From contig JAUCBJ010000412.1 of NCBI GenBank assembly GCA_032718475.1, positions 37,414-101,413 of the forward strand: 64,000 bases of DNA. The letters are read 5' to 3'. The notes beneath the pieces are model-generated. The model did not search any database. It had not been told where the DNA came from and saw only the letters and a list, made by a program, of their open reading frames with translations. Positions 32,958 to 60,716 of the stretch are shown here, in pieces. Each line of letters begins with the position of its first letter. Positions within the stretch are counted from its first letter, which is position 1. Both the position numbers and the translations under genes were made by a program. The DNA comes from Nemertoderma westbladi (Eukaryota > Animalia > Xenacoelomorpha).

Positions 32958-35900
32958 TATTGTTATACTTATCTACGGCTCAAGACGGCGTTTCTGCAGA
33001 GTGATGCTGGTCTTAGCAATGAGATGTTGCGATTGTATAACACCTTAGGTCTATCAATAAAGTTTCTACACCGTTGCGTACCATATCTGCCCTAAAACAG
33101 TTCGTTTACATCACGTACTCTGTTACAATATTTAATATACACAACTACAGTATAATGCAAGTTGATCTACGTTCTCTCATAAATATTAATATAATATGCC
33201 GATGGAGTCCATTGTGCTAACCGAGAGGTTAATTGTGTTTTCATTGTCGGGAGAAAATACAATTCCCTGGGGTTGTATGTCGGATATACTGGAGGGCATT
33301 ATGTGGGTAGGAATACCGGATGGGTAACAATCATTTCATTATGTCGTCTCATTAGTTGAACATCTGGACTGTTCTTGATATTAAGGCTGTTCGGTGTTCA
33401 TTCAATTTGATACAATGTGATGATTTATAATCTGTAAGGTGTGAACGTTATGCTATTATATCATTATTGGATTGAGTAGCCAAGGCTATTTAGTCTTTTG
33501 GTTTTCACATTTTTCGCTGATTTTATGCGAAATTATTCGCTGTGATATTTCATACTGCACCTACTGTAGACCTGGAGGGAAGGGCTACACCGCACCAAAA
33601 TAACTGCGGATTATATGCCTATCATTAGCGGCAACGCTAATTTTGCGGGCAATCATGAACAGGACAAATCAACTACACTGTAGCTAGTGGACTAGAGGAG
33701 CTAACCCATAGCGCTTCTATGCGGCTGCTTTCGGAACAGGCTTATTGTCTTACGAGTCCTCGTCAATAATTCTGGCGGACTGCACTGGAAATATGTCGTC
33801 AGACTTTGTGTGTAAAATCAGCCCGAGCGGCCGGATATAATTTTACTTTACTTTAACTGTTTTTTACGCGTTTACTTTACCGGGACCACATATATGCTGA
33901 ATGCGGTTCATAGTTTTTCCCAAGTCGAGTGGTTAATGGGTCTGGTAAGTTGAGGCCATGACCTAACTCCTGATCGAATCCCGCTAATAACCATAGCAGA
34001 CCCAGTGGATATACTGTTTGGTCTGTTTAAAGACGTTCGATCTATTATCCAGCATGTAACTACAGTATAATAGTAAACATAAGAACCACTACTACTTGGC
34101 TCTCTTTTGGAATTCACTATTATGAGTTGACATGAAAAATTTCAACGGCATTGACAATTTCGTTATTAATTTAATCTTTTTTTCAAATGTTGGGCCTATG
34201 TTAGTGAAAGTTCTAGCACCATTTACACGATATTATAGCTAAAATATTTATTATTTGCGTGCATATATCATTATTATAAAGACATTGGAGATACTTTATA
34301 ATGGTGAGGAGTGAGCCTTTAAGTCTGTGAGCCTCATCATACAGTTTACTCTGATTTACTTATTGAAAACTGTATGACAATTTTCACTGAAAATGTCACC
34401 AGTACAAAATGCTACAACCGTTACACACCGTTTTAGTAGGCCTACAATTAATTGTTTTACATGAAAACTTTCTTAGAAAAAACACAATTATTAATCAAAC
34501 AAACAATAATCCCACATATTTTGCATTAATAATGAAAATACAGTTGAACAACAACTGTGGATGATCGATCTTAAAAGGTCTAAACAGTTTCCAAAATAAA
34601 ATGACATATTGTGGTGTAGAAATGTCACTGTAAATGTACCGTAACAATCTCGTTCTTTGAACAATTTCACCACAGCCCCAGACAGATCATTTAGATTGTG
34701 CTGAATGCATTTTATCCGCTCCTCTTGAATTAAATAAAATTGAAATCTTATCAAAGGTATCGGCAATATTCCTGCTTGCATAAAAGTTCCTACGTGCATA
34801 TAAAGAATACATATAAAGCATACATTCACATTTATTGCTTTGTCTCACAATCACCAACCATTATATTTGTAATAGAGTTTGATAGTATGACTGACTAAAT
34901 AAATAACCAACCCTCTATTACAATCTAACATACTCCATTTATCTTTCTGTGTATTATTATTGTAAATAAATACGGTACTAAATCTATATACATCTAAAGT
35001 TTTAAATATTTTCATTGTGAAAAATTAGTAGAACTAAGAATTTGGTGGGTCCCCGTCCCAGGTAGGACCACTGCAGTATATCATCAACACCACACTCCCA
35101 CCCACTAGGATCTGTAGAGGTAAAATCCATATTAAAATTAGGTAAATGTGTCGGATTAAAAATAGGTAAGAGATTAAATATAGGTAAATCCCCATTCATG
35201 CTTGCATATAAGTATCAACTACACAAGCTGACAAGTACACAATTACGCCATATCATTTTATCAACTCTCTGGTAATGTAAAATATTTAAATATATGCTGT
35301 AAGTAAATTATTCCCATTCAGAGCACCAAAATGTCGGAATTTTGTTTGTTCTGCATTTATAACTACCATAGTCTCTACTTCAACTTGCTGACTTGGTAAA
35401 CTAAAACTTTCTACTTTGGTCCGGATGATAATGCATTGCAAGCATTGTTGCGCCACATTTAGGTCGAATTGTAGAAGAAAGTGAAGAAAATGTGTCACTC
35501 GCAACTGAAGGAACGGAACGGAACGGAACGCTTAAAGTAAACAAACCTTAGCGGAACCTAAATTTACAAAGCGTGGGGTCGATATCTGGATGTAATTTGG
35601 TCGCATCGTTTGCGTCGAATATGGGAAATTCACTTACAGACTTTGATAGAACTATTATTGTTCACACAATTTCGAAATCTAGTGAAAGGCTGTGTATGTT
35701 CGATATGTTTCATCAAGTAAACAGCAAGTCGCCGGTCTAACTATTGCATCGAACCTGTTTCGTATCAGAACTAAAGAAGTGTAATACACAAGTTGTAGAG
35801 CAGTTCAATGGCAAATGGTGTAATTAATAAGTATAATATTCATTTTCTGGACAAAATGAAGCCTGTCAATCACACATGACTTTACGCCTGATTTTAGACT

Positions 35901-36038
35901 ACCGGAACCAACGGATCAATGACGCAGCGAAGGCCAAACTGACTGGAATTAATAGCAGGGAGAAAACTGAAGCTCAACAATAATTATGGTTGTCTGTCAT
36001 TAATTTAGAAATTTATTATAATAATAATTGAATTAAAT

Positions 36039-36194
36039 GGCCGTCTTTTACCACTCGCTACAATGAAAGGGAATCAATGGGTGTAGCCGTCCTACCAAAA
36101 TTAGTAGCTAGAGTGTATAATAATCATTGTGCCCGTGATGGTTCATGGTTAATATACACTACCCTTTCATTGTAGCGAGTGGTTAAAGACGGCC
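36039..36194. mobile_element. 156-bp MITE nested in the previous element
   Basis: 33-bp near-perfect TIR GGCCGTCTTT(T/A)ACCACTCGCTACAATGAAAGGG. Confidence 0.8.
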
Positions 36195-36321
36195 TAGTAC
36201 TGTAGGGTTGAGCATAGTGGCAGCATACTGTATGATGGTAATTGTCAGATGGGAGGCCATGAGGAGGTAAATTGCGGACATACAAGGTATCAGGTAGTAT
36301 TTCCAGGTCTATCTTTTACCT

Positions 36322-36390
36322 GAGCCGCTAGCTGAATGGTTAGAGCGTCAGACTTCCAACCCGGAGGTCACCAGTTCGATCCCACCTCGA
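36322..36390 (+). pseudogene. tRNA-derived sequence (SINE head or tRNA pseudogene)
   Basis: A-box TAGCTGAATGGTTAGAGC, B-box GTTCGATCC, CT-TCC-AA loop, but acceptor and T stems pair poorly. Confidence 0.6.
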
Positions 36391-36981
36391 CGTTATTGCC
36401 GACTTTGCAAAAGCTGTGCCCAACATAAAGTTATAATAATATCAAACCACTCATTCACCCATAACACCAATAATAAAATCAACCGTTTCTCACGTATACA
36501 GCTTTTTCCATATTTCGATGTAATATTTTTTTGATACGGTTACAGAGTGTAATAATGTATATTATTATATTGAAATTTAGTAAATCGGCAGTGATCCCAA
36601 CATTTACCTATTTTTAATCTCCCTTTCAAACGCTTACCCATTTTTAAACTGTCAAATTTAACTATTTTTAATACGGATTTTACCCCTTCTCACTAGGATG
36701 GTTGCTAACTCGGTCACCTTCCCTTCCAGTACACCAAAGGGAAAGCACGTGGTATCGTGGGTATTATTTCTATTGTGAATCTCCAAGAAAATTGAGATTT
36801 TTCACTGTGCCAAAGCCAAAGCACGGTCATGGATCATGTCCTTGACCTGGGGGGTTGGCATCCACCAAAATCTACCTACAAAAATATGATTATTAACACT
36901 CTCTTGTCAGGAACGAAGTGGCCTACTGTAGTGTAGTTATGTAATCAGGAACGAAGTGGCCTACTGTAGTTATGTAATCAG

Positions 36982-37254
36982 TTAGTGAGCTAACGTCCAA
37001 AGTTTATTACTCTCATTTGTGTTGGTTTTATCGTGAAACTGAACCACACAGTTTCCGGGATCGTGCATAGCCATAACATCAATCCCGATATCAACGACTC
37101 CCTCCATTTGGGACCAAACATCCGTACTAACAGTGAACAAGGATGACTTGTCCTTCGCATTCACAACCAGCTCAATCACTTGGTTCACCTCTTCAATGCT
37201 CACTACTTTCCCCTGTACGATAAATAGTTCTTGCATCTCCCAAACGTAGCCTTC
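36982..37254 (-). CDS. Unknown beta-rich protein, terminal exon 4
   Basis: Acceptor ATTTAG, phase 0, EGYVWEMQELFIVQGKVVSIEE...AH*. Confidence 0.75.
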   Translation of the reverse strand, partial: EGYVWEMQELFIVQGKVVSIEEVNQVIELVVNAKDKSSLFTVSTDVWSQMEGVVDIGIDVMAMHDPGNCVVQFHDKTNTNESNKLWTLAH

Positions 37255-37517
37255 CTAAATATAATATAATTTAACACTAAACTAAACAATTAAAACATTT
37301 ATGCCATAAATTGTGACCAGTAACCCTGACAAATTATAATGGTTAAAGCGAACTAACGAAAATTAATTTAACTGTCTACTTTCAAATAGTTGCATGGCTA
37401 TGTAAATTTTAATAATTACAGTAATACAAGAGTAATTTCAGTTCGTTGACGTTTACTATTTTACATATTTGTCAGTTTACACATTTCATATGTAGGCCTA
37501 CTTATTGTTTAGATTAC

Positions 37518-37671
37518 CTTTGCTGTTATTCGCACTAAATGTGACTCCCCATCCGCGATGATGTCATCAATCCGCTCGTTCATTATCTGTGACGTCGACT
37601 TAATAGTGACGTCATCTACCATATTGGGTAGTAAGACTGATATGAGATAGGCTTTTCTTATTGCTCGTATT
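37518..37671 (-). CDS. Unknown beta-rich protein, exon 3
   Basis: TTTCAG acceptor and GTAAT donor. 154 nt, open frame IRAIRKAYLI...LVRITAK, phases match both neighbours. Confidence 0.75.
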
Positions 37672-37899
37672 CTGAAATAAAACACATAATAATAACAATA
37701 TGTTGATTCACTCCGAAAGTGATCAAAGTACTAGTTACTACAACTGTAAGTCCTACAAGATACTTACGTGCTGTGATTGTTCTAAATGTTATTATAAATG
37801 TTAAAGCAGTAGAACCACTACTCTTATAGTCCATGCTCGTCTTAATCTCAAGGCAATCTAAATAAGTTGTTTAGATGGTCTTGATCCAACTTCAGAGAT

Positions 37900-38150
37900 T
37901 TACAAATCTGTGGATGCCTCTTACACAAAAATGCTGCGGCGGGTTTATTGTGTCAAGTACAATGAACACATCTCCAATCAGACACTATATAACATTGGAG
38001 GTGTTCCATTAGTTTCCCCTAGCTTGACACTTGAACGGAGCCGTCTCCGCTTTGCAGGACATTGCTTTCGCCGTGAGGACCAGCCAGTGCATAATCTTGT
38101 ACTTTGGCAGCCTCATGGAGTGAATAAGCATGGTGGACAGCCCATAGCTT
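37900..38150 (+). mobile_element. RTE-type LINE 3' fragment (intronic)
   Basis: DASYTKMLRRV...EHISNQTLY...RLRFAGHCFR...LVLWQP..G..GGQP. Confidence 0.8.
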
Positions 38151-38478
38151 TTTTCGTATTACTTAAACTTCTTATTACGAAGTTTCTAAAAAATAAAACT
38201 ATAACCTGTTCCAGTAAATTAGTTTATTGTTTTGGTTAGAATATCGTACCACTGTAACCTGCGGTTTTTTCTTAATTGATAATTTTTAACAACGTAGATA
38301 TTAATTTCGCTATACGGTTACGGTACGTTACCGTTTTGGGCTTATTGTATGGCCCCACATCTGCAGAGCTATCAGTTCTGGCTACTTTGTCAATCGGCAC
38401 TTCCTAACGTCCGTATTAGTTTCCTTTATTATTTATAGGTGCAATATCAGCTCCGATAAAGTTTATTACACAACTTAC

Positions 38479-38657
38479 CTAACATCGGAATTGGTATCGG
38501 CTTCTGATATATCCACTAATAGGCCGTCCTGGTGTTTTACACAAAGATTTACTGGGGTCCGCCCACCTGCGATAAAACCCTTGGCCTTCGCGTACAATTC
38601 TTCGTTGGAGGTAAATAATGCCAAACTAGTGACATTGAAAGCGGGTCCAATATCTAC
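38479..38657 (-). CDS. Unknown beta-rich protein, exon 2 (first 33 nt are the satellite unit)
   Basis: TTTTGTAG acceptor and GTAAGT donor. 179 nt, open frame VDIGPAFNVTSLALF...ADTNSDV, phase 2 joins exon 3 as AG+A. Confidence 0.75.
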
Positions 38658-40936
38658 CTACAAAATGTAAACACTAGTGACATTGAAAGCGGGTCCAATA
38701 TCTACCTACAAAATGTAAAGACTAGTGAGATTGAAAGCGGGTCCAATATCTACCTATAAAATGTAAAGACTAGTGAGATTGAAAGCGGATCCAATATCTA
38801 CCTACAAAATGTAAAGACTAGTGAGATTGAAAGCGGGTCCAATATCTACCTATAAAATGTAAAGACTAGTGAGATTGAAAGTGGGTCCAATATCTACCTA
38901 CAAAATGTAAAGACTAGTGAGATTGAAAGCGGGTCCAATATCTACCTATAAAATGTAAAGACTAGTGAGATTGAAAGTGGGTCCAATATCTACCTACAAA
39001 ATTTAAAGACTAGTGAGATTGAAAGCGGGTCCAATATCTACCTACAAAATGTAAAGACTAGTGAGATTGAAAGCGGGTCCAATATCTACCTACAAAATGT
39101 AAAGACTAGTCAGGTTGAAAGCGGGTCTAATATCTACCTATAAAATGTAAAGACTAGTGAGATTGAAAGCGGGTCCAATATCTACCTACAAAATGTAAAG
39201 ACTAGTGAGATTGAAAGCGGGTCCAATATCTACCTACAAAATGTAAAGACTAGTGAGAATGAAAGCAGGTCCAATATCTACCTACAAAATGTAAAGACTA
39301 GTGAGATTGAAAGCGGGTCCAATATCTACCTATAAAATGTAAAGACTAGTGAGATTGAAAGCGGGTCCAATATCTACCTACAAAATGTAAAGACTAGTGA
39401 GATTGAAAGCGGGTCCAATATCTACCTACAAAATGTAAAGACTAGTGAGATTGAAAGCGGGTCCAATATCTACCTACAAAATGTAAAGACTAGTGAGATT
39501 GAAAGCGGGTCCAATATCTACCTACAAAATGTAAAGACTAGTGACATTGAAAGTGGGTCCAATATCTACCTACAAAATGTAAAGACTAGTGACATTGAAA
39601 GCGGGTCCAATATCTACCTACAAAATGTAAAGACTAGTGACATTGAAAGTGGGTCCAATATCTACCTACAAAATGTAAAGACTAAAAGACTAGTGACATT
39701 GAAAGCGGGTCCAATATCTACCTACAAAATGTAAAGACTAGTGAGATTGAAAGCGGGTCCAATATCTACCTACAAAATGTAAAGACTAGTGACATTGAAA
39801 GCGGGGCCAATATCTACCTACAAAATGTAAAGACAAGTGAGATTGAAAGCGGGTCCAATATCTACCTACAAAATGTAAAGACTAGTGAGATTGAAAGCGG
39901 GTCCAATATCTACCTACAAAATGTAAAGACTAGTGAGATTGAAAGCGGGTCCAATATCTACCTATAAAATGTAAAGACTAGTGAGATTGAAAGTGGGTCC
40001 AATATCTACCTACAAAATGTAAAGACTAGTGAGATTGAAAGCGGGTCCAATATCTACCTACAAAATGTAAAGACTAGTGAGATTGAAAGCGGGTCAAATA
40101 TCTACCTACAAAATGTAAAGACTAGTGACATTGAAAGCGGGGCCAATATCTACCTATAAAATGTAAAGACTAGTGAGATTTAAAGCGGGTCCAATATCTA
40201 CCTACAAAATGTAAAGACTAGTGAGATTGAAAGCGGGTCCAATATCTACCTACAAAATGTAAAGACTAGTGAGATTGAAAGCGGGTCAAATATCTACCTA
40301 CAAAATGTAAAGACTAGTGACATTGAAAGCGGGGCCAATATCTACCTATAAAATGTAAAGACTAGTGAGATTGAAAGCGGGTCCAATATCTACCTACAAA
40401 ATGTAAAGACTAGTGACATTGAAAGCGGGTCCAATATCTACCTACAAAATGTAAAGACTAGTGAGATTGAAAGCGGGTCAAATATCTACCTACAAAATGT
40501 AAAGACTAGTGAGATTGAAAGCGGGTCCAATATCTATCTATAAAATGTAAAGACTAGTGAGATTGAAAGCGGGTCCAATATCTACCTACAAAATGTAAAG
40601 ACTAGTGAGATTGAAAGCGGGTCCAATATCTACCTACAAAATGTAAAGACTAGTGAGATTGAAAGCGGGTCCAATATCTACCTACAAAATGTAAAGACTA
40701 GTGAGATTGAAAGCGGGTCCAATATCTACATACAAAATGTAAAGACTAGTGACATTGAAAGCGGGTCCAATATCTACCTACAAAATGTAAAGACTAGTGA
40801 GATTGAAAGCGGGTCCAATATCTACCTACAAAATGTAAAGACTAGTGAGATTGAAAGCGGGTCCAATATCTACCTACAAAATGTAAAGACCAGTGAGATT
40901 GAAAGCGGGTCCAATATCTACCTACAAAATGTAAAG
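38626..40936. repeat. 48-bp tandem satellite, ~48 copies
   Basis: Unit ACTAGTGAGATTGAAAGCGGGTCCAATATCTACCTACAAAATGTAAAG. Confidence 0.97.
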
Positions 40937-41607
40937 ACTAAAAGACAAGTGACATTGAAAGTGGATCCAATATCTACTGTACCTACAAGATGTAAAGACT
41001 AAAAGACAAGTGACATTGAAAGTGGATCCAATATCTACTGTACCTACAAGATGTAAAGACTAAAAGACAAGTGACATTGAAAGTGGATCCAATATCTACT
41101 GTACCTACAAGATGTAAAGACTAAAAGAGAAGTGACATTGAAAGTGGATCCAATATCTACTGTACCTACAAGATGTAAAGACTAAAAGACAAGTGACATT
41201 GAAAGTGGATCCAATATCTACTGTACCTACAAGATGTAAAGACTAAAAGAGAAGTGACTTTGAAAGTGGATCCAATATCTACTGTACCTACAAGATGTAA
41301 AGACTAAAAGACAAGTGACATTGAAAGTGGATCCAATATCTACTGTACCTACAAGATGTAAAGACTAAAAGACAAGTGACATTGATAGTGGATCCAATAT
41401 CTACTGTACCTACAAGATGTAAAGACTAAAAGACAAGTGACATTGAAAGTGGATCCAATATCTACTGTACCTACAAGATGTAAAGACTAAAAGACAAGTG
41501 ACATTGAAAGTGGATCCAATATCTACTGTACCTACAAGATGTAAAGACTAAAAGACAAGTGACATTGAAAGTGGATCCAATATCTACTGTACCTACAAGA
41601 TGTAAAG
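40937..41607. repeat. 61-bp variant satellite, ~11 copies
   Basis: The 48-mer with 8-nt and 5-nt insertions. Confidence 0.95.
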
Positions 41608-41794
41608 TAGTGAAAAAATGAAAAACAGTACAGGTTACGGTAATTTGTATAATAGGCCTACAGTAATGCGCACAGTAAATAATAAAAATGTATCCCTCTC
41701 CAGGGGAAATTCAACCTAAGTAACAGCAAGCAGTGAAATAAAATTGGGATATCGCAAAATTATCACGTTGGGTTGCGAAGTTTTTTTACCTTAC

Positions 41795-41845
41795 CTCAAT
41801 GTCGTATCCCTCTTGAGACCTGTTCAGTAATCCTATAAAATTCAT
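41795..41845 (-). CDS. Unknown beta-rich protein, putative exon 1 (MNFIGLLNRSQEGYDIE)
   Basis: ATG at 41845 and phase-0 donor GAG|GTAAGG matching exon 2. Could instead be an internal exon using the acceptor at 41833. Confidence 0.55.
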
Positions 41846-43879
41846 TTTTATTATTAAACTCTTCGTTAGGTGGCGTCATTCCTTTCGTACACATACGATT
41901 TGACGTGCTGTTTTACTACTCCAGAAGTCAATCCAATTCATTAATTATTACAAAGTAGACCTACAGATACCGTGTACCGTTTATAATAGTCATTTGGTTT
42001 AGTTCTGTTTGTTATATTCCTTTTATTTTAACGTTAGGTATGTAGTAAGCTTAATTGTTTAATAAATACAGACTCAACAATATGTACTGTACAATTCGTA
42101 AAATGTACTTTTCGAAACGAATAACGGCTAATAACATGTTTATTTAGTTATTAATATTTATTTAATCACCCGTTATTTACAGTATTTTATATATTCTGGT
42201 TACTGTCTGGCTTTAATATAGAAATGTTGGCACGAAAGTACTATTACTTAACTACAATAGTTAGCAAGTCGTAATTAATGAATGTACATAAAGATACTGG
42301 ATACATATTGGAATTTTGTTTTCTTCACAGAATAATAATAGAGTAATGTTATATAATATATATTATTACATTTGGCATTCAATAATAATTATGTGTAGGT
42401 AGACTTACTGTAGTGTAGAGTTGAGGTAAACAAGATATTGTACGTACATTGTTGGCCCACTCACATTTAATTCTATTCTTTCGATTCTACAACTTCTACT
42501 GTACCACATTATATAGCCTACTTGGCTACTTCATAATGGTACTTCCTTCATTTAAATTTCCATTATGTAGATCCACTACGGTACTACGGACCTATATGGA
42601 AGGAATAAGGTAGGGCTACTTTAGTTTTCTGATTCTCGTGGATCTGATTGGTTTCATTCGCTACGTTCGTTCATTTAATCTACCCACTACCATTCGGTTC
42701 TGCGCAATGAAAAGTGTAAACATTGTTTACACACAAGTATGCTAATATAGTTTATCCAACTACAAGGTTACATTAATATTATTATATGAAAAAATGAAAT
42801 AATAATTTAACTATAGAGTTATGTGGCTAACGCCAACATATAAACCAAAATACAAAATTAAACAAACACAAATATATATTTTCACCAACTCAGAAATTGC
42901 TGATAGATAAACTTAGGGATTTTCCGAAGCATTTTTAGTTGTGTACACATAAATGCGGCTAAAGTTAATTTAAAAACGTTAAAATTTGAAGAGATTATTT
43001 GAAGGCATATTCCCTATATTGGGTGTATTAATATAACATACCAATAACCACTGAGTTAACATTAAGCGAATATAGCAGCTGCCCAAAATAGTCAGTGATT
43101 TAGAGTAGATTTGTAATACTTGTCAATCTCTTTCAGCCACAATCCCTTTCAGCCACTACAGAATGTATGTAATAATATTGGTAGGGTTAGGGCTCCTTGC
43201 CTGGTTGCAACTCTAGGCCTACCACTGAATATAGTGTAGGACTCACTCCGTCACTCATTTATTTTGGTAGTGGGGTGGCTAAATAGCTGAGGGTATGTAT
43301 CGTTAGGTCCGATCGAATTCCGAGCTTCTCCAGAAATCAGTGTAACGCAAAATTGAGCCTCCGCCACGCCGACTGCCTTAATGGTTAAAGGGTCCACTGG
43401 GATATAAATTATTGAAACCTATGTGAAAGGTTCCACAAACTAGTTATATTCCGAGCTGTGTTAAAAGATTTAGCGTTTTGAAGAAATGGACAAGGAATTA
43501 ACTTCGAAAATCGCCACAAATAACAGCTGATTACTCTCAAAAATAAATCTGTAATCTGTTCTATTGAATTTAGTTTATTGTTCTGATTAGAATAATATGA
43601 CATTGTAATCTGTTCTTTTCCCTTAATTAATAAAATATTTAATCTTATTCTTGTAACTGTTGGCGACACCTTGAGGTATGCTGATTCCTGATGGAATTTT
43701 CGAATGGTCGATATTGTTGTTGCCAAATTAGATAATTTTGACATAAAAAGCAAAACGTAACGTAAAGTTATCGGTGAGAGTGAAACAGCGGAAGCAACCC
43801 GTAGGTTTCTCTCTCTTGGCTGTTACCTGTAAGGCAGGGTGGGCGCCACACTGACTCCCAATGGTGAACACTACATAAC

Positions 43880-44025
43880 TATCCAATCCTTTCTTTCTAT
43901 AGACAGGTTCCTATTGTACCGCTGGGTTTGCGTAAGTACTAATGTCGGTTTCTTGTCTAGAGACACAATGCTAAATTTCTACAGCCTTTAGTCGGATTTG
44001 AACCTGCACCGCCTAACACTAGGCC
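43880..44025 (-). mobile_element. Degenerate tRNA-derived SINE
   Basis: Minus strand shows B-box GGTTCAAATCC, followed by TTGTGTCTCTAGACAAGA and ACCCAGCGGTACAATAGG, resembling conserved SINE central domains. Confidence 0.45.
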
Positions 44026-44109
44026 CTACAATGATATGATATGATACTACAATATGATATGATAGGGGTATGACTGGCTGGGAGAAAAAGCCAATCAACC
44101 ACCAAGGTT

Positions 44110-44400
44110 AAGGCAGAATCTCCAGCTGATCGCTTGGTTGGAAGTCCCACTTCCAACTGCAAAAGCTGCTAATTAATGACAGGGTATTGCCTGATAACTT
44201 TATAGATGTAAAAGTGTCTGTACTCCCAGATATTCCCATTGGCGATATCTTCATTGCTGATGTGAACGCTGCTACAAACAGCATTACGACCAATCGTGCC
44301 GGTGAAGTAGATGGTGTTCCCCCTAAGGTCTTTAAAATTCCTGAGTGTTTGAAGCTCATTTATCCCATCATAATAAATGATAACTGCAGCTTTGTGGAAA
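44110..44400 (+). mobile_element. RTE-type LINE fragment (region preceding RT core)
   Basis: WKSHF...DVNAATNSITTNRAGEVDGVPPKVFK resembles the KA.G.DGIP.E..K motif. Confidence 0.65.
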
Positions 44401-44561
44401 TGTAAGATTACGGGTGCTGACTGTAGAGTAGACAGTTGATACTGATAGTAGGTGTATGTATGTATAGCAATATTAGTTTCAGTTTCACAGCAGCGGAACG
44501 TTTATAGTAATTATTATTATTATTATTCCATTTACTAACTTTTAAAGGTCATTTATTACAT

Positions 44562-45573
44562 ATAGAGGATGGCACATACACTCGGAACCTGTGCTGGGAT
44601 AGAGGATGGCACATACACTCGGAACCTGTGCTGGGATAGAGGCTGGCACATACACTCGGAACCTGTGCTGGGATAGAGGATGGCACATACACTCGGAACC
44701 TGTGCTGGGATAGAGGATGGCACATACACTCGGAACCTGTGCTGGGATAGAGGCTGGCACATACACTCGGAACCTGTGCTGGGATAGAGGATGGCACATA
44801 CACTCGGAACCTGTGCTGGGATAGAGGCTGGCACATACACTCGGAACCTGTGCTGGGATAGAGGCTGGCACATACACTCGGAACCTGTGCTGGGATAGAG
44901 GATGGCACATACACTCGGAACCTGTGCTGGGATAGAGGCTGGCACATACACTCGGAACCTGTGCTGGGATAGAGGATGGCACATACACTCGGAACCTGTG
45001 CTGGGATAGAGGATGGCACATACACTCGGAACCTGTGCTGGGATAGAGGCTGGCACATACACTCGGAACCTGTGCTGGGATAGAGGATGGCACATACACT
45101 CGGAACCTGTGCTGGGATAGAGGCTGGCACATACACTCGGAACCTGTGCTGGGATAGAGGCTGGCACATACACTCGGAACCTGTGCTGGGTGAACGGCAC
45201 ATACACTCGGAACCTGTGCTGGGATAGAGGCTGGCACATACACTCGGAACCTGTGCTGGGTGAACGGCACATACACTCGGAACCTGTGCTGGGATAGAGG
45301 CTGGCACATACACTCGGAACCTGTGCTGGGATAGAGGATGGCACATACACTCGGAACCTGTGCTGGGATAGAGGCTGGCACATACACTCGGAACCTGTGC
45401 TGGGATAGAGGCTGGCACATACACTCGGAACCTGTGCTGGGTGAACGGCACATACACTCGGAACCTGTGCTGGGATAGAGGCTGGCACATACACTCGGAA
45501 CCTGTGCTGGGTGAACGGCACATACACTCGGAACCTGTGCTGGGATAGAGGCTGGCACATACACTCGGAACCT
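44562..45573. repeat. 37/33-bp satellite, left part
   Basis: Unit CACATACACTCGGAACCTGTGCTGGGATAGAGG(C/A)TGG and 33-bp variant ending GGGTGAACGG. Confidence 0.97.
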
Positions 45574-46188
45574 CATTATCATTTATCATTATATTTATTT
45601 CTCCAATCAAACAATAAGAAATTGCAATACACTTTCATAATTAAATCAATACTTATAAATGATGACTGAAGCTGGCTGACTGCTAATAGCCTGGAGCTAG
45701 TGGACGCAATCAGCCAGGTGTTAAGCTAAGTATCAGACATGAAATATTATTTTACTACCTTGGGTATTTATATTATGACACATTTTTTTATATCCTTAAA
45801 TACTCTCCGGCCCAAAAAATGAAATATTTATAGAACCATTAACTAAATTTATTGTGATACTATTGACCGATACCTACTTGGTTGAGACTAAAATTTGAAA
45901 TTGAAAGAGTGGATGATGGCGATTTTATTTAAATAGGAATGATGTTTAATTAATTGACCAAAACAGAGTAGATTCAGAGAAAAGTTATTGATAATTTATT
46001 TATACAATTTGAAGTAAAAATAGTTAGGATGTTACGGGCGGCAATTTTTGTGAAGTCTTATATAGGTCAGGAAGTTAAATTTTAAATTTTGCACAAGAGT
46101 ATCCAGTATATAAAAAAAAATAAAAAATAATAATAAATAAATAGGGAGAAGTGTCAAATTTGTAAATTTTATTTGCAATAAAAATATT

Positions 46189-49100
46189 TTATAGGTGCTG
46201 TAGGAGGTGCTTTTTCAGGTTTTTTGAAAACATTGCTATTGTTTTTTTTTTCCTAATCATCACCGGGATCTCGTTCCAAATAGACGGACCAAGATAACTA
46301 AGAGAGCGTTGAGTTGAGCTGAGACGTACTAGTGGAAGTTGAATATTCCCTTGGGTGGCTGATCTTGTATTATAATTATGGCAGTCTTTAATTTTATTGA
46401 AAAATAGCTTTGAGATATTTGTAGGGGCTAAATTGTTGTTACATCTGTATACAAACCTACCTATTTCGTACTTATAAAGCAAATCTAAGGGAAGGATATT
46501 TAATGATTTGTAAATGGGATTTGCCGATGAACGATGGTGGCTGAAGGTAATACATCGTAATAATTTATTGATTTTTATTCTGAGTGGTTTAATAATGCTT
46601 TCATAAGTTCCCCCCCAAAGTATGATTCCGTAAATTAAGTATGGGTGAATTAAAGAAAAATAAAGTAATCTTAAGATATTTAATGGGAATATATGCCTCA
46701 GTTTGAAAAATATACCAGAAAATTTTGAAATTTTTTTAGTTATGTATTGAATGTGACTTCTCCAGTTTAATTTATTATCCACCCACACCCCTAAAAATTT
46801 AGTTACATGTACTTGTTTTATTTTATTGGTGTTAATATGTACTATTGGCGTATTTGTAAAGTCTTTTAAAGTATATGAAAACAATTCGTATTCAGTTTTT
46901 GATAGATTTAAAGATAATTTATTGTCGATTAACCAATTCGAAATTTTAGCTAGTTCACAGTTTGTGGCTTCAATTAAAACATTAATATTATTATTTGATG
47001 TATAAAGGGTAGTATCATCTGCAAAAAGGGTACAGTTAAGATTTGTTGCATTGGGTAGATCGTTGATGTAAAGTAGGAATAAGTTTGGTGACATTATACT
47101 ACCCTGGGGAACCCCACAAGCCAGTGGTAAATTTATTGAATTGCAATCATCTATGGAAACGTATTGAAATCTGTTTGATAAAAAGTTTGAAATTAGGTCG
47201 TGAGGTTTTCCTCTTATGCCATAGTTGAGTAATTTATTTTTAAGAATTTTGTGATCTAAAGTATCATATGCTTTTTTTAAATCAATAAAGATAGCACTGG
47301 TTGTGTGTTTGTGTTCTAGAACATTTTGAATATGATTTATTACTGAGAGTAGAGCATCGGAAGTTGTTGTCTTAGGTCGAAAACCGTATTGTGAACTAGT
47401 CAAAATTCCAAACTTTAATATAAAAGACTGAAGTTGGTTATTTATTATTTTTTCAAATATTTTGCTAAGAACTGGTAAAAGTGAAATAGGACGGTAATTA
47501 TTTGGGTCGGTGGGGTCCCCCCCTTTAAAAGATGGAATAATTTTAGCAATTTTTAGAGAGTCGGGGAAGAAACCTCGTTGAATTGATAGATTTATAAGAG
47601 GAGCTAGGAGAAATGACAGAGGTTTAGCAGCCAGTATAAGAAGTTTAGTTGGAAATGTGTCATTGGTTCCTGATTTTGGATTTAAATGCAAGAGTTCATA
47701 TTCAACTTCCACCGGCGATGTCTCAACTAATGAGAACGAACTGGAGCTATTAAACTTAATATTCCGTGTTGGAGAGCGGTTTGATGAGGGAATTGAGCTT
47801 GCCAACTCTGGACCAATATTAGCGAAATGGGTGTTAAGAATGTTAGCAATTTTTAATTTATCTGTAAATGTTTCAATTTTATCCCCTTCTTTAACAGTTA
47901 TTTTTTTTGGAATGTTTAATTTTTTTTGTCTATTTAAAGCTGAGTTTATTATGAGCCAGGTTTTTCTAGTGTTGTTTGAATTTGATGTGAATTTGTTCGT
48001 ATAATAATTTTTCTCTGCAATTTTCAGGCATGAAGTTAATTTATTACGATATGTTTTAAATTTATTTAAGTTTTCTGTTGTGGGATTTTTTAAATATTTT
48101 CGGAATAATGTATTCTTCTTGCGGGAGCATTTTATTAAAGAGGTGGTTATCCAGGGTTTTTTGGGGGAATTGCGTTGACTTATTTTTTTTTTGGTTACAT
48201 GATTCGAACAAATGTTTTCTAGATTTTCATAAAATTTATTAAATTTTTCATTATCTGGTATTAAACTGGATTTGTAAGACCAAGAGCTTTCCAGTTTAAT
48301 ATCTTTTATGAATTTATCGGCCTTAAAATTTGAGTAATCAAAAATGGTATTGTGTGTTGGGTCTGAAAAATGGCAAGAACAGTTTCTAAAAATTGAAAAG
48401 CAAGGTAAGTGGTCCGATGTACCAATTTGCGCTAAGATTGTGCCTGCGGTTGTAAAAGAAGTTGTTATGTTTGTTATAATGTGATCAATTAATGAATCGT
48501 CTGAGCCTTCAACTCTTCTAGTAGCCGTTGTTATTAACTGGAGAAAACCGAAGGAATTTAATAAATTTGTATATTCACGTGCTTGGCAAGTATTTTTCAA
48601 TAAGTTTACATTTAGATCTCCTGTTAAAATTACATCAAGTTTTTTATTTGACAAATTTGCTAATAAAGAATCTAAAGAGTTTAAAAAACATTCAAATTTA
48701 ATTGCTCCAGTTCGGTAAATAGTTCCAATAATTAAGGGTTTTGCATTGCTTGTGCATTTGATCTCAATAAACACGTTTTCCAAACCCTCGACCCGTAAGT
48801 CAGGCCTTTGATTAACTTCATAATTTTCATTTACAAAAATTGCCGACCCGCCTCTCTTTGTTTCCCTACAATCTAAATATGGTCCCTTATATCCAGCAAT
48901 TTTGAAAAAATTTAATAGTTCTTCATCATCCTTTTTTACAAAAGTTTCGGTAAAAGTTAGAATATCTACTTTATTTTCAAGAGAAAGGAGAAAATCAATT
49001 GTTGGTTGAAAATTTTTGTTAAGACTTCTACAATTAAAATTCAGAACGGATAATGATTTTTTAGATAAATTTTTGTTAATTTCTTCATTTAACTGACTCT

Positions 49101-49479
49101 CTGAATAATCTCCTTTGTTGTGGTTAAGGTTGATGATATTGTCTTCAGGATCTATGAAACTAAAAGTTTGATTAACAATGTCACTCGGTTCATCATTCTC
49201 AGCTAGTGGTGAGAAGAAAATATCATCATCAGTTACATCAATACATGCAAAGGGGAAAATTTCGCAGTAACAAAAGTTACAATAGGTATCTAGGTTCGGT
49301 GGACGGTCAATAGTTTCACAAAGCATTTGGGATCCGCATGGTAAATGAAAACTCTTATTACACAAATCGCACTTAAATTTAGGTTCATGAGGAAATATTT
49401 CTGAAAAACAAAAATGACAATAATTTGTGGGTGAAATATTACTAAGGGCCGGAGGTGAAACATGATGTCTATTTGACAT
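46189..49479 (-). CDS. LINE ORF2: PHD-like zinc finger + APE endonuclease + reverse transcriptase
   Basis: CHFC..CDLC..H..C..CNFC; NCRSL, TETF, GDLN, SLIDH, SDH; YRPISLL, DLKKAYD, GVPQGS, FADDT, KFLG. Confidence 0.97.
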   Translation of the reverse strand: MSNRHHVSPPALSNISPTNYCHFCFSEIFPHEPKFKCDLCNKSFHLPCGSQMLCETIDRPPNLDTYCNFCYCEIFPFACIDVTDDDIFFSPLAENDEPSDIVNQTFSFIDPEDNIINLNHNKGDYSESQLNEEINKNLSKKSLSVLNFNCRSLNKNFQPTIDFLLSLENKVDILTFTETFVKKDDEELLNFFKIAGYKGPYLDCRETKRGGSAIFVNENYEVNQRPDLRVEGLENVFIEIKCTSNAKPLIIGTIYRTGAIKFECFLNSLDSLLANLSNKKLDVILTGDLNVNLLKNTCQAREYTNLLNSFGFLQLITTATRRVEGSDDSLIDHIITNITTSFTTAGTILAQIGTSDHLPCFSIFRNCSCHFSDPTHNTIFDYSNFKADKFIKDIKLESSWSYKSSLIPDNEKFNKFYENLENICSNHVTKKKISQRNSPKKPWITTSLIKCSRKKNTLFRKYLKNPTTENLNKFKTYRNKLTSCLKIAEKNYYTNKFTSNSNNTRKTWLIINSALNRQKKLNIPKKITVKEGDKIETFTDKLKIANILNTHFANIGPELASSIPSSNRSPTRNIKFNSSSSFSLVETSPVEVEYELLHLNPKSGTNDTFPTKLLILAAKPLSFLLAPLINLSIQRGFFPDSLKIAKIIPSFKGGDPTDPNNYRPISLLPVLSKIFEKIINNQLQSFILKFGILTSSQYGFRPKTTTSDALLSVINHIQNVLEHKHTTSAIFIDLKKAYDTLDHKILKNKLLNYGIRGKPHDLISNFLSNRFQYVSIDDCNSINLPLACGVPQGSIMSPNLFLLYINDLPNATNLNCTLFADDTTLYTSNNNINVLIEATNCELAKISNWLIDNKLSLNLSKTEYELFSYTLKDFTNTPIVHINTNKIKQVHVTKFLGVWVDNKLNWRSHIQYITKKISKFSGIFFKLRHIFPLNILRLLYFSLIHPYLIYGIILWGGTYESIIKPLRIKINKLLRCITFSHHRSSANPIYKSLNILPLDLLYKYEIGRFVYRCNNNLAPTNISKLFFNKIKDCHNYNTRSATQGNIQLPLVRLSSTQRSLSYLGPSIWNEIPVMIRKKKTIAMFSKNLKKHLLQHL

Positions 49480-49819
49480 AACCTAATAATAACTATAAAA
49501 TAAGTACCAGAATTACTCAACTCAAGTATTTGACAGCTTACCAGTAGGTACCAATACCAATACCAGTAGGTCTTGTAAGTAATTTTCCAAAAAAAAGAAA
49601 TCCAAAATAACCGCGCTAAAAATATGTAACATTTAATCACTATATTACATCGTATTTTCGTAAAGTACTTTGTATATATACGTACCGGAATTATGTTATT
49701 GATATAATAGGGTTGGTGCGGAAAAAAACATATTACAGTTTTAAGTAGGCCTAATTATGTTTTGTCTAACTTTTACATAACTGCTTTGGACAGGAATATA
49801 GGTCTATATCAATATATAT

Positions 49820-50548
49820 TTATGAAACTGTCGAGTTTGACCTTGTTCCCCTGCGATTCATGTCGGAAGTTGTCGTAGATGATCCGCGATCCTTCGCCCA
49901 TTCTTTAATGGAATCCACGTCCACGTCGGAGTGAATGTAGATAGGAAGAGAAGTCTTCGATTTCTTCACGACAATGTTGCCATTGTAAGAGTAGGCCGCA
50001 TGAATTTTATTCGATTTACTTAATGACGCTAGCTGGCGTAGTTGACTCGCACGTCGCGGGGTTAGGTGTTCCGATAGATATATAGAGCCGCCCAGCGATT
50101 TCGCATTAGCAAATGCAGTGATTCGGGATCCGTGTCCATAGAATTTGATGATAATGGGACGTGTTTTCGGTTTAATTTCGTTCGTCGTAGTCTCAATTGA
50201 GGAAGCTTCGTTGTTCTGAGCGCGCCCGAGGCGGTGGAATATATCTATTGCGTTCCAGTTGAGACCTAGTGTTTCGATTAGTTTCTTCACTGTGTTAGTT
50301 TCGGATTCTCGATTGGGTGATTCAGTCACACCGTGAATTAGTAAGTGTGACCTTCGGATATATTGCGCTAAGTCGTCGTTTTGTTGTTCTAGTTTCGAAT
50401 TCTTTAGATTAAGGGATTCTATCTCGGTTGCGTGCTGTTGTTTAAGGACACTGATTTCCGAGCGGAGACTTTTTATTTCATCAATTAAGTCTTTTCTTAA
50501 GGCAGATAGAGAATCCATGATTGCATCGAGAGTAAGTTTGGGGGGCAT
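49820..50548 (-). CDS. LINE ORF1 (coiled coil + RRM + CTD)
   Basis: Heptad region, RRSHLLIHGVTE, HRLG, RPIIIKF, IYLSEHLT, YSYNGNIVVK. Likely ATG at 50548 (MPPK). Confidence 0.9.
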   Translation of the reverse strand: MPPKLTLDAIMDSLSALRKDLIDEIKSLRSEISVLKQQHATEIESLNLKNSKLEQQNDDLAQYIRRSHLLIHGVTESPNRESETNTVKKLIETLGLNWNAIDIFHRLGRAQNNEASSIETTTNEIKPKTRPIIIKFYGHGSRITAFANAKSLGGSIYLSEHLTPRRASQLRQLASLSKSNKIHAAYSYNGNIVVKKSKTSLPIYIHSDVDVDSIKEWAKDRGSSTTTSDMNRRGTRSNSTVS

Positions 50549-50714
50549 ATTTGACAACTCAATAGAGTAATCGCACGCCGAGCGACGGAACAATGAGTTA
50601 ATAGCAATGCAAGTCTGATAGTGGGGGTATGGAAGTAAAATGGACCTACCGGTACCGGTACTTAGTAAACCTATGTATACATACGTCTGTCACCTAGCTC
50701 TCCTCAACCTCTCT

Positions 50715-53700
50715 CTCGGAACCTGTGCTGGGATAGAGGATGGCACATACACTCGGAACCTGTGCTGGGATAGAGGCTGGCACATACACTCGGAACCTGT
50801 GCTGGGATAGAGGCTGGCACATACACTCGGAACCTGTGCTGGGTGAACGGCACATACACTCGGAACCTGTGCTGGGATAGAGGCTGGCACATACACTCGG
50901 AACCTGTGCTGGGTGAACGGCACATACACTCGGAACCTGTGCTGGGATAGAGGCTGGCACATACACTCGGAACCTGTGCTGGGATAGAGGCTGGCACATA
51001 CACTCGGAACCTGTGCTGGGATAGAGGCTGGCACATACACTCGGAACCTGTGCTGGGATAGAGGCTGGCACATACACTCGGAACCTGTGCTGGGATAGAG
51101 GCTGGCACATACACTCGGAACCTGTGCTGGGATAGAGGCTGGCACATACACTCGGAACCTGTGCTGGGATAGAGGCTGGCACATACACTCGGAACCTGTG
51201 CTGGGATAGAGGCTGGCACATACACTCGGAACCTGTGCTGGGATAGAGGCTGGCACATACACTCGGAACCTGTGCTGGGATAGAGGATGGCACATACACT
51301 CGGAACCTGTGCTGGGATAGAGGATGGCACATACACTCGGAACCTGTGCTGGGATAGAGGATGGCACATACACTCGGAACCTGTGCTGGGATAGAGGATG
51401 GCACATACACTCGGAACCTGTGCTGGGTGAACGGCACATACACTCGGAACCTGTGCTGGGTGAACGGCACATACACTCGGAACCTGTGCTGGGTGAACGG
51501 CACATACACTCGGAACCTGTGCTGGGATAGAGGATGGCACATACACTCGGAACCTGTGCTGGGATAGAGGATGGCACATACACTCGGAACCTGTGCTGGG
51601 ATAGAGGATGGCACATACACTCGGAACCTGTGCTGGGTGAACGGCACATACACTCGGAACCTGTGCTGGGTGAACGGCACATACACTCGGAACCTGTGCT
51701 GGGTGAACGGCACATACACTCGGAACCTGTGCTGGGATAGAGGATGGCACATACACTCGGAACCTGTGCTGGGATAGAGGATGGCACATACACTCGGAAC
51801 CTGTGCTGGGATAGAGGATGGCACATACACTCGGAACCTGTGCTGGGATAGAGGCTGGCACATACACTCGGAACCTGTGCTGGGATAGAGGATGGCACAT
51901 ACACTCGGAACCTGTGCTGGGATAGAGGCTGGCACATACACTCGGAACCTGTGCTGGGATAGAGGCTGGCACATACACTCGGAACCTGTGCTGGGATAGA
52001 GGCTGGCACATACACTCGGAACCTGTGCTGGGATAGAGGCTGGCACATACACTCGGAACCTGTGCTGGGATAGAGGCTGGCACATACACTCGGAACCTGT
52101 GCTGGGATAGAGGCTGGCACATACACTCGGAACCTGTGCTGGGATAGAGGCTGGCACATACACTCGGAACCTGTGCTGGGATAGAGGCTGGCACATACAC
52201 TCGGAACCTGTGCTGGGATAGAGGCTGGTACATACACTCGGAACCTGTGCTGGGATAGAGGATGGTACATACACTCGGAACCTGTGCTGGGTGAACGGCA
52301 CATACACTCGGAACCTGTGCTGGGATAGAGGCTGGCACATACACTCGGAACCTATGCTGGGATAGAGGATGGCACATACACTCGGAACCTGTGCTGGGAT
52401 AGAGGCTGGCACATACACTCGGAACCTGTGCTGGGATAGAGGCTGGCACATACACTCTGAACCTGTGCTGGGATAGAGGCTGGCACATACACTCGGAACC
52501 TGTGCTGGGATAGAGGCTGGCACATACACTCGGAACCTGTGCTGGGATAGAGGCTGGCACATACACTCGGAACCTGTGCTGGGATAGAGGCTGGCACATA
52601 CACTCGGAACCTGTGCTGGGATAGAGGCTGGCACATACACTCGGAACCTGTGCTGGGATAGAGGATGGCACATACACTCGGAACCTGTGCTGGGATAGAG
52701 GCTGGCACATACACTCGGAACCTGTGCTGGGATAGAGGCTGGCACATACACTCGGAACCTGTGCTGGGATAGAGGCTGGCACATACACTCGGAACCTGTG
52801 CTGGGATAGAGGCTGGCACATACACTCGGAACCTGTGCTGGGATAGAGGCTGGCACATACACTCGGAACCTGTGCTGGGATAGAGGATGGCACATACACT
52901 CGGAACCTGTGCTGGGATAGAGGCTGGCACATACACTCGGAACCTGTGCTGGGATAGAGGCTGGCACATACACTCGGAACCTGTGCTGGGATAGAGGCTG
53001 GCACATACACTCGGAACCTGTGCTGGGATAGAGGATGGCACATACACTCGGAACCTGTGCTGGGATAGAGGCTGGCACATACACTCGGAACCTGTGCTGG
53101 GATAGAGGATGGCACATACACTCGGAACCTGTGCTGGGATAGAGGCTGGCACATACACTCGGAACCTGTGCTGGGATAGAGGATGGCACATACACTCGGA
53201 ACCTGTGCTGGGATAGAGGATGGCACATACACTCGGAACCTGTGCTGGGATAGAGGCTGGCACATACACTCGGAACCTGTGCTGGGATAGAGGATGGCAC
53301 ATACACTCGGAACCTGTGCTGGGATAGAGGATGGTACATACACTCGGAACCTGTGCTGGGTGAACGGCACATACACTCGGAACTTGTGCTGGGATAGAGG
53401 ATGGTACATACACTCGGAACCTGTGCTGGGATAGAGGATGGTACATACACTCGGAACCTGTGCTGGGTGAACGGCACATACACTCGGAACCTGTGCTGGG
53501 ATAGAGGATGGTACATACACTCGGAACCTGTGCTGGGATAGAGGATGGTACATACACTCGGAACCTGTGCTGGGTGAACGGCACATACACTCGGAACCTG
53601 TGCTGGGATAGAGGATGGCACATACACTCGGAACCTGTGCTGGGATAGAGGCTGGCACATACACTCGGAACCTGTGCTGGGATAGAGGCTGGCACATACA

Positions 53701-60047: not shown

Positions 60048-60345
60048 TATCTGCAAAATAAATGATACGAGGATGAAGGAGTTCAGACCGGAGGAAAAGC
60101 AATTTAAATATCAAATTACGTTTACATGAAAAAACAACAAGATTTATTTCGCCAATGATTATTTTTTACTAAAATCCCTCCCTCACGCTCTGTTCAGCAA
60201 ATTATACATTTTGGCGAAAATAAAGCGCTATTTGTTTTCTATGTAAAAAGTAGTTATTCGTTTTAAAAGCACAAGCATTTTTAGTTTGCTAGTATAAAGT
60301 TGTATAGAATTTATACCCAAGCTTGGCTATTTAGTTGCACCGAAC

Positions 60346-60716
60346 ATGTTTGCGGAAGTTTTAAAGACATGTTTACTTTTCACCCTTTATCTTACGGCGA
60401 ACGGATTGCCGATAACCGGGGATAAAGCTGTTGTTGTCGAAGGCGACATGAGAATGGATGAAAATGCGTTCAAATGGTACAGGGAACAAGGAAGTTCGGG
60501 CGATAATGGTTCGAAACAGCCGCAATTACGAGCCGCAATTACTAGGAGAAACCGTGATGGACTAAGTAGGCCTACTACAGACGCACCAGCTGACACAGAT
60601 CGTAAAAACACACGAGCAGATGAGCTACTACATGATGATGAGGCGTCGTTTCTTGCAAAGAGGAAGGGGGTGGCTCCAGATGTGAAAAAGTGGAAGCATG
60701 GAATTGTGCCATACCG
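60346..60716 (+). CDS. Astacin (M12A) metalloprotease exon 1: signal peptide, prodomain, start of catalytic domain
   Basis: Hydrophobic N-terminus, EGDM prodomain motif, KRK site, KW..G.VPY. Phase-2 donor GTATGT. Confidence 0.85.

What the first reader, a model, noticed from the sequence alone, without database searches (positions are those of the whole stretch)
38479..41794. Intron filled by ~59 tandem copies of its own 3' splice site: a decoy or recursive-splicing array
Seen: on the minus strand the 48-bp unit is CTTTACATTTTGTAG|GTAGATATTGGACCCGCTTTCAAT(C/G)TCACTAGT, i.e. 15 nt of acceptor plus the first 33 nt of exon 2. About 2.95 kb of the 3.14-kb intron consists of such copies, and only the last continues into the open exon. 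Splicing to any upstream 48-mer gives VDIGPAFNLTSLYIL* (the next acceptor's TAG is in frame), and the 61-mers give VQ*. Every junction is AG|GT (GTAGAT or GTACAG), the geometry of recursive 'ratchet' sites, and joining to exon 1 (GAG|) would regenerate a weak donor. Inference: the gene is either disabled, rescued by exon definition, spliced stepwise, or tuned by copy number through NMD.
Basis: partly seen in the sequence, partly recalled or inferred. Interest (0 to 1): 0.85.

Follow-up and report, generated by a model that had tools for sequence, protein, structure and literature searches.

The report
Mirage minisatellite in orphan-gene intron
A short piece spanning the end of an intron and the start of the next exon of a predicted animal gene is repeated 59 times head to tail, which matches a repeat type known from lancelets as a "mirage" and is likely a tolerated DNA-duplication by-product rather than a splicing device, though no RNA was found to show how it is spliced.

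Summary
The array is real: 59 units (11 x 61 bp, 46 x 48 bp, 1 x 56 bp, plus the exon-adjacent unit) fill 2,950 of 3,137 nt of predicted intron 1. The four-exon, 218-codon gene is ab initio only: phases fit and coding bias favours the predicted frame, but no homologue or RNA was found. Only 1 of 187 YAG sites yields the full protein. The anatomy matches the lancelet 'mirage' of globin BflGb6 (intron end + exon start), reported as spliced normally (PMC3087553). Recursive splicing is unsupported: AG|GT is inherited from the real junction, 0 of 59 units fit the human recursive-site motif, and splice dinucleotides vary as much as other positions (2 of 17 alleles, 1.4 expected; low power). Against harmlessness: the first decoy keeps the native acceptor context only 202 nt from the donor, and the exon-adjacent acceptor looks weakest. 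The scan found this before on other DNA: 9 notes in this genome and 2 in others (unchecked). Verdict: new member of a known kind; interest 0.25.

The parts
41795..41845 (-). Predicted exon 1 coding part (ATG, 17 codons, phase-0 donor at 41794, 7 of 9 U1 matches)
   Evidence: best of 6 frames in the coding model, LLR +3.5; one of only 2 donors with 7 or more of 9 matches in 44560-41608 and the only one of the two with an ATG in an open phase-0 frame
41608..41794 (-). Unique part of intron 1 (187 nt) with the native T-rich tract; no AG for 65 nt before the first array acceptor
41604..41613 (-). 10-nt direct repeat (1 mismatch) of exon-2 positions 38632-38623; likely slippage seed or relic of an eroded unit
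   Evidence: 0.0014 of random intronic windows match as well (post hoc test)
40937..41607 (-). Sub-array of 11 x 61-bp units (5-nt and 8-nt insertions and 4 substitutions against the exon-adjacent unit, not counting position -15)
38673..40936 (-). Sub-array of 46 x 48-bp units and one 56-bp unit; mean pairwise identity 96.7%; 4-unit higher-order block in units 20-33
   Evidence: lag-4 permutation p=0.002, block chosen by eye
38658..38672 (-). Unit 59: exon-adjacent acceptor, the only YAG in the intron that gives the 218-codon frame; unique G at -15, extra AG at -18
38479..38657 (-). Predicted exon 2 (179 nt, GC 0.45); first 33 nt are the repeated exon part; donor 8 of 9 U1 matches, phase 2
   Evidence: coding score weak (LLR +0.2; 70 of 985 overlapping null windows score as high)
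37518..37671 (-). Predicted exon 3 (154 nt, GC 0.42)
   Evidence: 24 of 1,480 null windows score as high
36982..37254 (-). Predicted exon 4 with stop codon (273 nt, GC 0.44)
   Evidence: 0 of 271 null windows score as high; ATTAAA at 36672 and 36618

Best explanation
The array is a tandem repeat of the last 15 bases of a predicted intron plus the first 33 bases of the next predicted exon, a 'mirage' minisatellite that likely arose by DNA slippage and is likely tolerated because the spliceosome would mostly pick the last copy. Shown: unit structure, two sub-arrays, block periodicity, alleles shared between sub-arrays, non-productive outcome of every other YAG. Inferred origin: a slip between two 10-nt near-identical stretches 46 nt apart across the junction gave the first copy; a 2-nt gain gave the 48-mer; unequal exchange and conversion amplified and homogenised it. 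Inferred splicing: unit 59 is paired across a 179-nt exon with a strong donor (exon definition) and then joined to exon 1; transcripts spliced to upstream copies carry early stops and would be degraded. AG|GT at each copy is inherited from the real junction, not selected.
For: Same anatomy as BflGb6 (3' end of intron + 5' part of exon 2), whose mRNA is reported as regularly spliced despite AG/GT signals in many units (PMC3087553 section 16); same statement for Adh3, troponin C and PGBD5. Turnover signs named there are seen here: 96.7% mean identity among 47 units, a boundary unit with its own allele, a 4-unit block (p=0.002), and 3 of 17 alleles plus the 8-nt insertion shared with the 61-mers (p about 0.01, rough). 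No selection for or against splice dinucleotides: AG 1 allele vs 0.71 expected, GT 1 vs 0.71, of 17. Only units 59 and 58 give exons under 250 nt with the exon-2 donor (179 and 227 nt), and an exon-centric proximity rule is reported for exon-defined sites (PMC9225289). The reading frame is intact although the 61-mers have diverged: a neutral-decay simulation leaves it intact in 6-20% of runs. Nine unchecked scan notes report such arrays in this genome, several with normal RNA junctions (leads only).
Against: No transcript of this gene was seen, so splice-site use is untested. Unit 1 keeps the native T-rich tract with no AG for 65 nt and lies 202 nt from the exon-1 donor, inside the range under 250 nt where the upstream acceptor is favoured in human data; for acceptors exon definition reduced the upstream preference in long/long cases and is not said to reverse it. 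Unit 59 looks the weakest 48-type acceptor (extra AG at -18, no yUnAy motif between -15 and -45, G at -15), while the commonest decoy has a yUnAy at -21. The allele test has little power (17 alleles). The decay test assumes ordinary mutation rates in a minisatellite and cannot exclude recent loss of function. No homologue supports the protein.
Confidence: 0.6

Rival explanations
1. The array has disabled or strongly weakened the gene: exon 1 is spliced across the ancestral 202-nt intron to unit 1, which stops after two codons, and little full-length mRNA is made.
For: Unit 1 has the best acceptor context and is 202 nt from the donor; unit 59 has the poorest. Upstream acceptor preference is strong for short introns in human data. 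An orphan gene may be dispensable.
Against: 218-codon frame, ATG and six splice dinucleotides intact; neutral decay since the 61-mers diverged leaves this in 6-20% of simulations. Published mirages are reported not to disturb splicing.
Confidence: 0.17
2. The array is removed in two or a few in-register steps. Because 57 of 59 junctions are AG|GT, a splice from an internal GT to a later AG deletes whole units; one splice from unit 1 to unit 59 restores the ancestral 202-nt intron. Alternatively exon 1 joins unit 1 first and the regenerated donor is re-used (one recursive step, not 59).
For: Geometry shown. A duplicated AG|GT segment was spliced out at 6-16% in human cells (PMC3265369). 48-type internal donors match U1 at 6 of 9 positions (8 of 11), as many as the predicted exon-3 donor. 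Recursive sites occur in short introns too, median 3.4 kb in one study.
Against: The donor that matters most (unit 1, 61-type) is the weakest, 5 of 9, no +5G. 0 of 59 units fit the Y5+N0-4YAGGT motif. No excess conservation of AG|GT. The same regenerated donor forms at the correct junction, where efficient use would remove exon 2.
Confidence: 0.12
3. The gene model is wrong or silent: exons 1-4 are not one transcribed unit, and the array is an ordinary minisatellite next to an exon-like sequence.
For: No homologue in any search; exon 2 coding score is weak; the internal-repeat test that could have tied exon 1 to exon 2 failed.
Against: All three junction phases match, giving ATG-to-stop 657 nt. 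Whole CDS LLR +22 in frame against -37 to -102 in the five other frames, 3.4 per 100 nt against 0.8-11.2 for five control exons of the window. 0 of 16 chance exon candidates in 40,412 nt of non-coding sequence score above 0, while both candidates in the gene region do. Exon GC 0.42-0.45 against 0.26-0.37 in introns. A conserved gene of this window (EHD) has a best hit of only 69%, so the lineage is thinly sampled.
Confidence: 0.07
4. Copy number is a selected rheostat: longer arrays divert more transcripts to early stops and decay.
For: 186 of 187 YAG sites are non-productive. Mirage length varies between lancelet haplotypes. An intronic VNTR linked to splicing is reported for TERT (PMC11830802, search listing only).
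Against: No allele, expression or selection data; allele spectrum looks neutral. Under either definition mode only the end copies should compete, so length in the middle should matter little (inference).
Confidence: 0.03
5. The array is an assembly artefact.
For: No reads could be laid across it.
Against: Two unit types, 17 distinct alleles in ordered blocks, an intermediate 56-bp unit and unique flanks are not what a collapse or stutter of one unit gives (inference).
Confidence: 0.01

Closest known systems
Amphioxus 'mirage' minisatellites: globin BflGb6 (acceptor side), BflGb9, Adh3, troponin C, PGBD5. Seen: PMC3087553 abstract, section 16 and passages; PMC3902484 passages. The Adh3 paper itself was not seen.
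   Same: Tandem copies of intron 3' end + 5' part of exon 2; many units keep AG/GT signals; concerted evolution inside, distinct boundary unit; unit size within the 10-72 bp range given for Adh3.
   Different: 59 copies against 3-6 in BflGb6; two unit types in one array; host gene has no known relative; normal splicing and length polymorphism are shown in lancelets but untested here; the first decoy sits 202 nt from the upstream donor.
Recursive splice sites (ratchet points, RS-exons). Seen: passages of PMC10156609.
   Same: YAG|GT juxtaposition at 57 of 59 units inside an intron.
   Different: Known sites are isolated, found by lariats or sawtooth coverage, with a Y5+ tract and cross-species conservation; here 0 of 59 fit the motif, spacing is 48-61 nt, and the geometry is copied from the real junction.
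Intron gain by tandem duplication of an AGGT-containing segment (Rogers model; ATP2A1/ATP2A2). Seen: PMC3265369 abstract and section 6.
   Same: Duplicated AG|GT allows precise in-register excision of whole copies.
   Different: There the duplicated segment is exonic on both sides of AGGT; here the 5' side is intronic with an in-frame stop at the AG, so the array lies inside an existing intron and does not create one in coding sequence.

Membership tests
Mirage minisatellite | Head-to-tail tandem repeat whose unit spans an intron-exon boundary of the host gene | tested here: met
   conditional on the ab initio gene model
Mirage minisatellite | Many units retain splice signals | tested here: met
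   58 of 59 AG, 57 of 59 AG|GT
Mirage minisatellite | Concerted evolution within the cluster, boundary unit set apart | tested here: met
   96.7% mean identity, 4-unit block p=0.002, allele unique to unit 59
Mirage minisatellite | mRNA spliced regularly across the array | tested here: inconclusive
   No run covering any exon was available
Mirage minisatellite | Length differs between haplotypes or cells | not testable with these tools
Recursive splice site | YAG immediately followed by GT | tested here: met
   57 of 59 units, but also at the true exon junction
Recursive splice site | Y5+N0-4YAGGT minimal motif (human criterion, PMC10156609) | tested here: not met
   0 matches in intron 1; the true acceptor fails too, so the criterion may not suit this animal
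Recursive splice site | Strong regenerated donor | tested here: inconclusive
   6 of 9 (48-type) and 5 of 9 (61-type) U1 matches, no +5G; predicted real donors 7, 8 and 6 of 9; simple match count only
Recursive splice site | Conservation of the site above its surroundings | tested here: inconclusive
   2 of 17 alleles hit AG or GT, 1.4 expected; low power; no other species
Recursive splice site | Lariat, junction or sawtooth evidence of intermediates | not testable with these tools
   No raw RNA reads of the locus
Rogers-type new intron | Duplicated AGGT segment is exonic on both sides | tested here: not met
   Sequence 5' of the AG is T-rich and ends in an in-frame stop

The most novel reading that the evidence does not exclude
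A self-excising mirage: the first decoy is too good to ignore (native tract, 202 nt from the donor), so the gene makes protein only because the AG|GT copies let the spliceosome delete the array in register as a nested or re-spliced intron. That would catch recursive splicing being born from a tandem repeat, with array length setting the yield.
Probability: 0.1. Interest if true: 0.7.

Novelty: new member of a known kind. Interest (0 to 1): 0.25.

Why it matters
As read here it is one more mirage in a genome that seems rich in them, so it adds little alone. Its use is as a compact test case: 3 kb fits a minigene, the decoys are near-identical, and the two ends of the array pit intron definition (unit 1, 202 nt from the donor) against exon definition (unit 59, 179 nt from the next donor). 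The 10-nt direct repeat at the array edge also offers a concrete origin for a class whose mechanism PMC3087553 calls unclear. If the array proved to be removed in steps, it would link tandem repeats to the birth of recursive sites and nested introns.

Tried and rejected
RNA: no RNA holder listed. The one run offered (X1, RNA only by guess, 0.05 of words) lay only on repeat fragments at under 95% identity, 3 records in 36500-38660 and 8 in 41547-44560, none on an exon and no joint across an intron; not used as evidence. The array itself was not covered by either stretch beyond one unit. Homologues: exon 4 and exon 2 against longer proteins, 0 of 29 candidates each; exon 4 against 1.84 billion representatives, 3 hits at E 4e-5 to 5e-4, all long bacterial-type Ig/PKD or FG-GAP repeat proteins matched over 35-45 residues, rejected as repeat-summed noise; Pfam none significant for the 3 exons tested; PDB sequences 0 for exon 2; metagenome contigs 0 of 160 pattern hits confirmed and 0 exact matches to the unit; Rfam 0 in 34000-46000. 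The whole spliced protein was never searched or folded; only single exons were, which lowers sensitivity. ESM Atlas gave no result. Structure: exon 4 alone, mean pLDDT 51.8, no Foldseek match at E<=0.001; uninformative. An impression of three OB-like internal repeats failed: pair scores reached by 1,842, 93 and 1,876 of 3,000 shuffles, whole-protein scan by 33 of 300. Hairpins as cause or as mask for decoys: DNA folds z -1.7 to +1.2 (6 of 6 unremarkable); RNA folds z -1.4, +0.7, -2.0, -2.2, a mild signal for the 61-mers only. Plus-strand coding repeat: two stop-to-stop fragments of 132 and 152 aa, broken by stops; rejected. The 32-bp array at 8837-10281 looked like transposon subterminal repeats by eye, not a mirage. 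Paper searches; none listed a study of a many-copy acceptor array with measured splice-site use beyond the lancelet papers, but most subscription papers are not in this library and no supplements were opened (Additional files 4-7 of PMC3087553 may bear on the comparison).

Full report
Observation. On the minus strand a regular expression for the acceptor finds 59 units between 41607 and 38672: 11 of 61 bp, 46 of 48 bp, one of 56 bp, and a last unit that continues into an open frame. Tandem Repeats Finder agrees (periods 48 and 61, scores 4252 and 1348). 58 of 59 units have AG and 57 of 59 have AG|GT. The array covers 2,950 of the 3,137 nt between the predicted exon-1 donor and exon 2.

Is there a gene? 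Four exons (41845-41795, 38657-38479, 37671-37518, 37254-36982) join with matching phases 0, 2, 0 into 657 nt from ATG to stop. A three-periodic model trained on five coding segments of this window scores the frame +22 nats against -37 to -102 for the five other frames; that is 3.4 per 100 nt, against 0.8-11.2 for the training segments left out in turn. Exon 4 beats all 271 stop-free null windows, exon 3 all but 24 of 1,480, exon 2 all but 70 of 985 (windows overlap, so these are not independent). With the same splice rules, 16 chance exons arise in 40,412 nt of non-coding sequence and none scores above zero, while the two candidates in the gene region (exons 2 and 3) do. Upstream of the array only 2 donors reach 7 of 9 U1 matches in 2.95 kb, and only the one at 41794 has an ATG in an open phase-0 frame. 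Against: no homologue was found for single exons, the fold of exon 4 was uninformative, and no RNA covers an exon. The lineage is thinly sampled (best EHD hit 69%). I put the model at about 0.9 for exons 2-4 and somewhat less for the link to exon 1.

What the copies would do. Joined to exon 1, 186 of the 187 YAG sites in the intron give products of 62 residues or fewer; only unit 59 gives 218. So upstream use is non-productive unless followed by another splice.

How the array evolved. The 47 upstream 48-type units are 96.7% identical on average and carry 17 distinct alleles. Units 20-33 show a four-unit block (p=0.002, block chosen by eye). Three alleles and the 8-nt insertion typical of the 61-mers recur in scattered 48-type units (p about 0.01, rough), which points to exchange between sub-arrays. 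Unit 59 has an allele of its own. A 10-nt stretch at the intronic edge of the array matches exon-2 positions +26 to +35 with one mismatch, 46 nt apart in the single-copy arrangement; 0.0014 of random intronic windows match as well. I infer a slip between these two stretches as the seed, which would also explain the G at -15 of unit 59; the match could instead be the relic of an eroded unit. Alleles hit AG once and GT once, against 0.71 expected each: no sign that decoys are kept or purged, with low power.

Recursive splicing. The AG|GT geometry is simply that of the true junction, because exon 2 starts with GT. No unit fits the Y5+N0-4YAGGT motif used for human recursive sites (passages of PMC10156609; test), though the true acceptor fails it too. 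Regenerated donors match U1 at 6 of 9 (48-type) or 5 of 9 (61-type) positions without +5G; the predicted real donors score 7, 8 and 6 (U1 motif recalled). Single-unit steps of 48 nt fall below the roughly 60-nt minimum quoted in PMC3265369 (section 6). A 59-step ratchet is therefore unlikely. A one- or two-step route is not excluded: one splice from unit 1 to unit 59 restores the ancestral 202-nt intron, and a duplicated AG|GT segment was excised at 6-16% in human cells.

Which acceptor wins. With the exon-2 donor (8 of 9), units 59, 58 and 57 would define exons of 179, 227 and 275 nt, and an exon-centric proximity rule is reported for exon-defined sites (PMC9225289 abstract and passages). The locus also has a feature against this: unit 1 retains the native T-rich tract, has no AG for 65 nt and lies 202 nt from the exon-1 donor, under the 250-nt limit where upstream acceptors are strongly preferred in human data (section 9), while unit 59 has an extra AG at -18 and no yUnAy motif (recalled consensus) between -15 and -45. 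Whether the gene survived is addressed only indirectly: if it had been neutral since the 61-mers diverged (4 substitutions in 48 nt, halved per lineage), the frame and splice sites stay intact in 20%, 11% or 6% of 1,500 simulations for indel ratios 0, 0.05 and 0.1. That modestly favours a living gene and does not exclude recent loss.

Comparison with the known. The name and first paper came from earlier scan notes; I then read them. [quoted passage not shown] PMC3902484 (passages) repeats this for Adh, troponin C and PGBD5. This array meets the three structural features I could test; regular splicing and length polymorphism could not be shown. Of the 16 listed rows from this genome (19 notes in all), 9 distinct notes concern such arrays, some far larger, and 2 notes from other genomes do too; these are unchecked and are not counted as support.

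Verdict. Real feature, new member of a known kind, most likely tolerated (0.6). Rivals: disabled gene 0.17, in-register stepwise removal 0.12, wrong or silent gene model 0.07, selected rheostat 0.03, artefact 0.01. Interest 0.25: ordinary in kind and smaller than others noted in this genome, but compact and with a clean contest between its two end acceptors.

Noticed in passing
window 45573-50708, minus: Apparently full-length LINE (ORF1-like 49820-50689, 289 aa; endonuclease/RT-like ORF 46189-49482, 1,097 aa without stops, named by eye) inserted into a 37-bp minisatellite with a 10-bp target-site duplication.
   Followed up: partly
window 44562-45573 and 50715-54632, minus: 37/29-bp array of about 136 units; nearly every unit has CAG|GT and, 9 nt later, a GTATG donor-like motif (27 and 108 YAGGT). 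It could be a micro-exon mirage or chance; no host exon identified.
   Followed up: partly
window 36865-36883, minus: A 19-nt, 1-mismatch copy of the intron-1/exon-2 junction core about 100 nt after the predicted stop; the only match with 3 or fewer mismatches outside the array. Unexplained.
   Followed up: partly
window 41876-41941 and 41784-41792, minus: A 21-codon upstream ORF in the same frame stops 10 codons before the predicted ATG (coding score negative), and a second donor 5 nt after the exon-1 donor would give an in-frame exon-2-skipping form of 160 aa.
   Followed up: partly
window 16773-20430, plus: EHD-family gene in two long exons; best database hit 69% identical.
   Followed up: partly
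window 57029-57853 minus; 60298-62443 plus: Intron-less KChIP-like EF-hand ORF (named by eye) and an astacin protease gene (Pfam E 1e-46).
   Followed up: no
window 2198-5491, plus: Two long adjacent ORFs (583 and 513 aa) separated by one stop, the second with CCHC zinc-knuckle-like motifs by eye; no Pfam match. Possibly retroelement-derived.
   Followed up: no
window 8837-11260 and 55118-56098: 32/39-bp arrays flanked by short inverted sequences, and 15-bp arrays in both orientations; look like non-autonomous DNA-transposon subterminal repeats.
   Followed up: no
window 37862-38239, plus; 36907-36981: Degenerate LINE RT fragment in predicted intron 2 and a two-copy 38-bp duplication directly after the predicted stop codon.
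   Followed up: no
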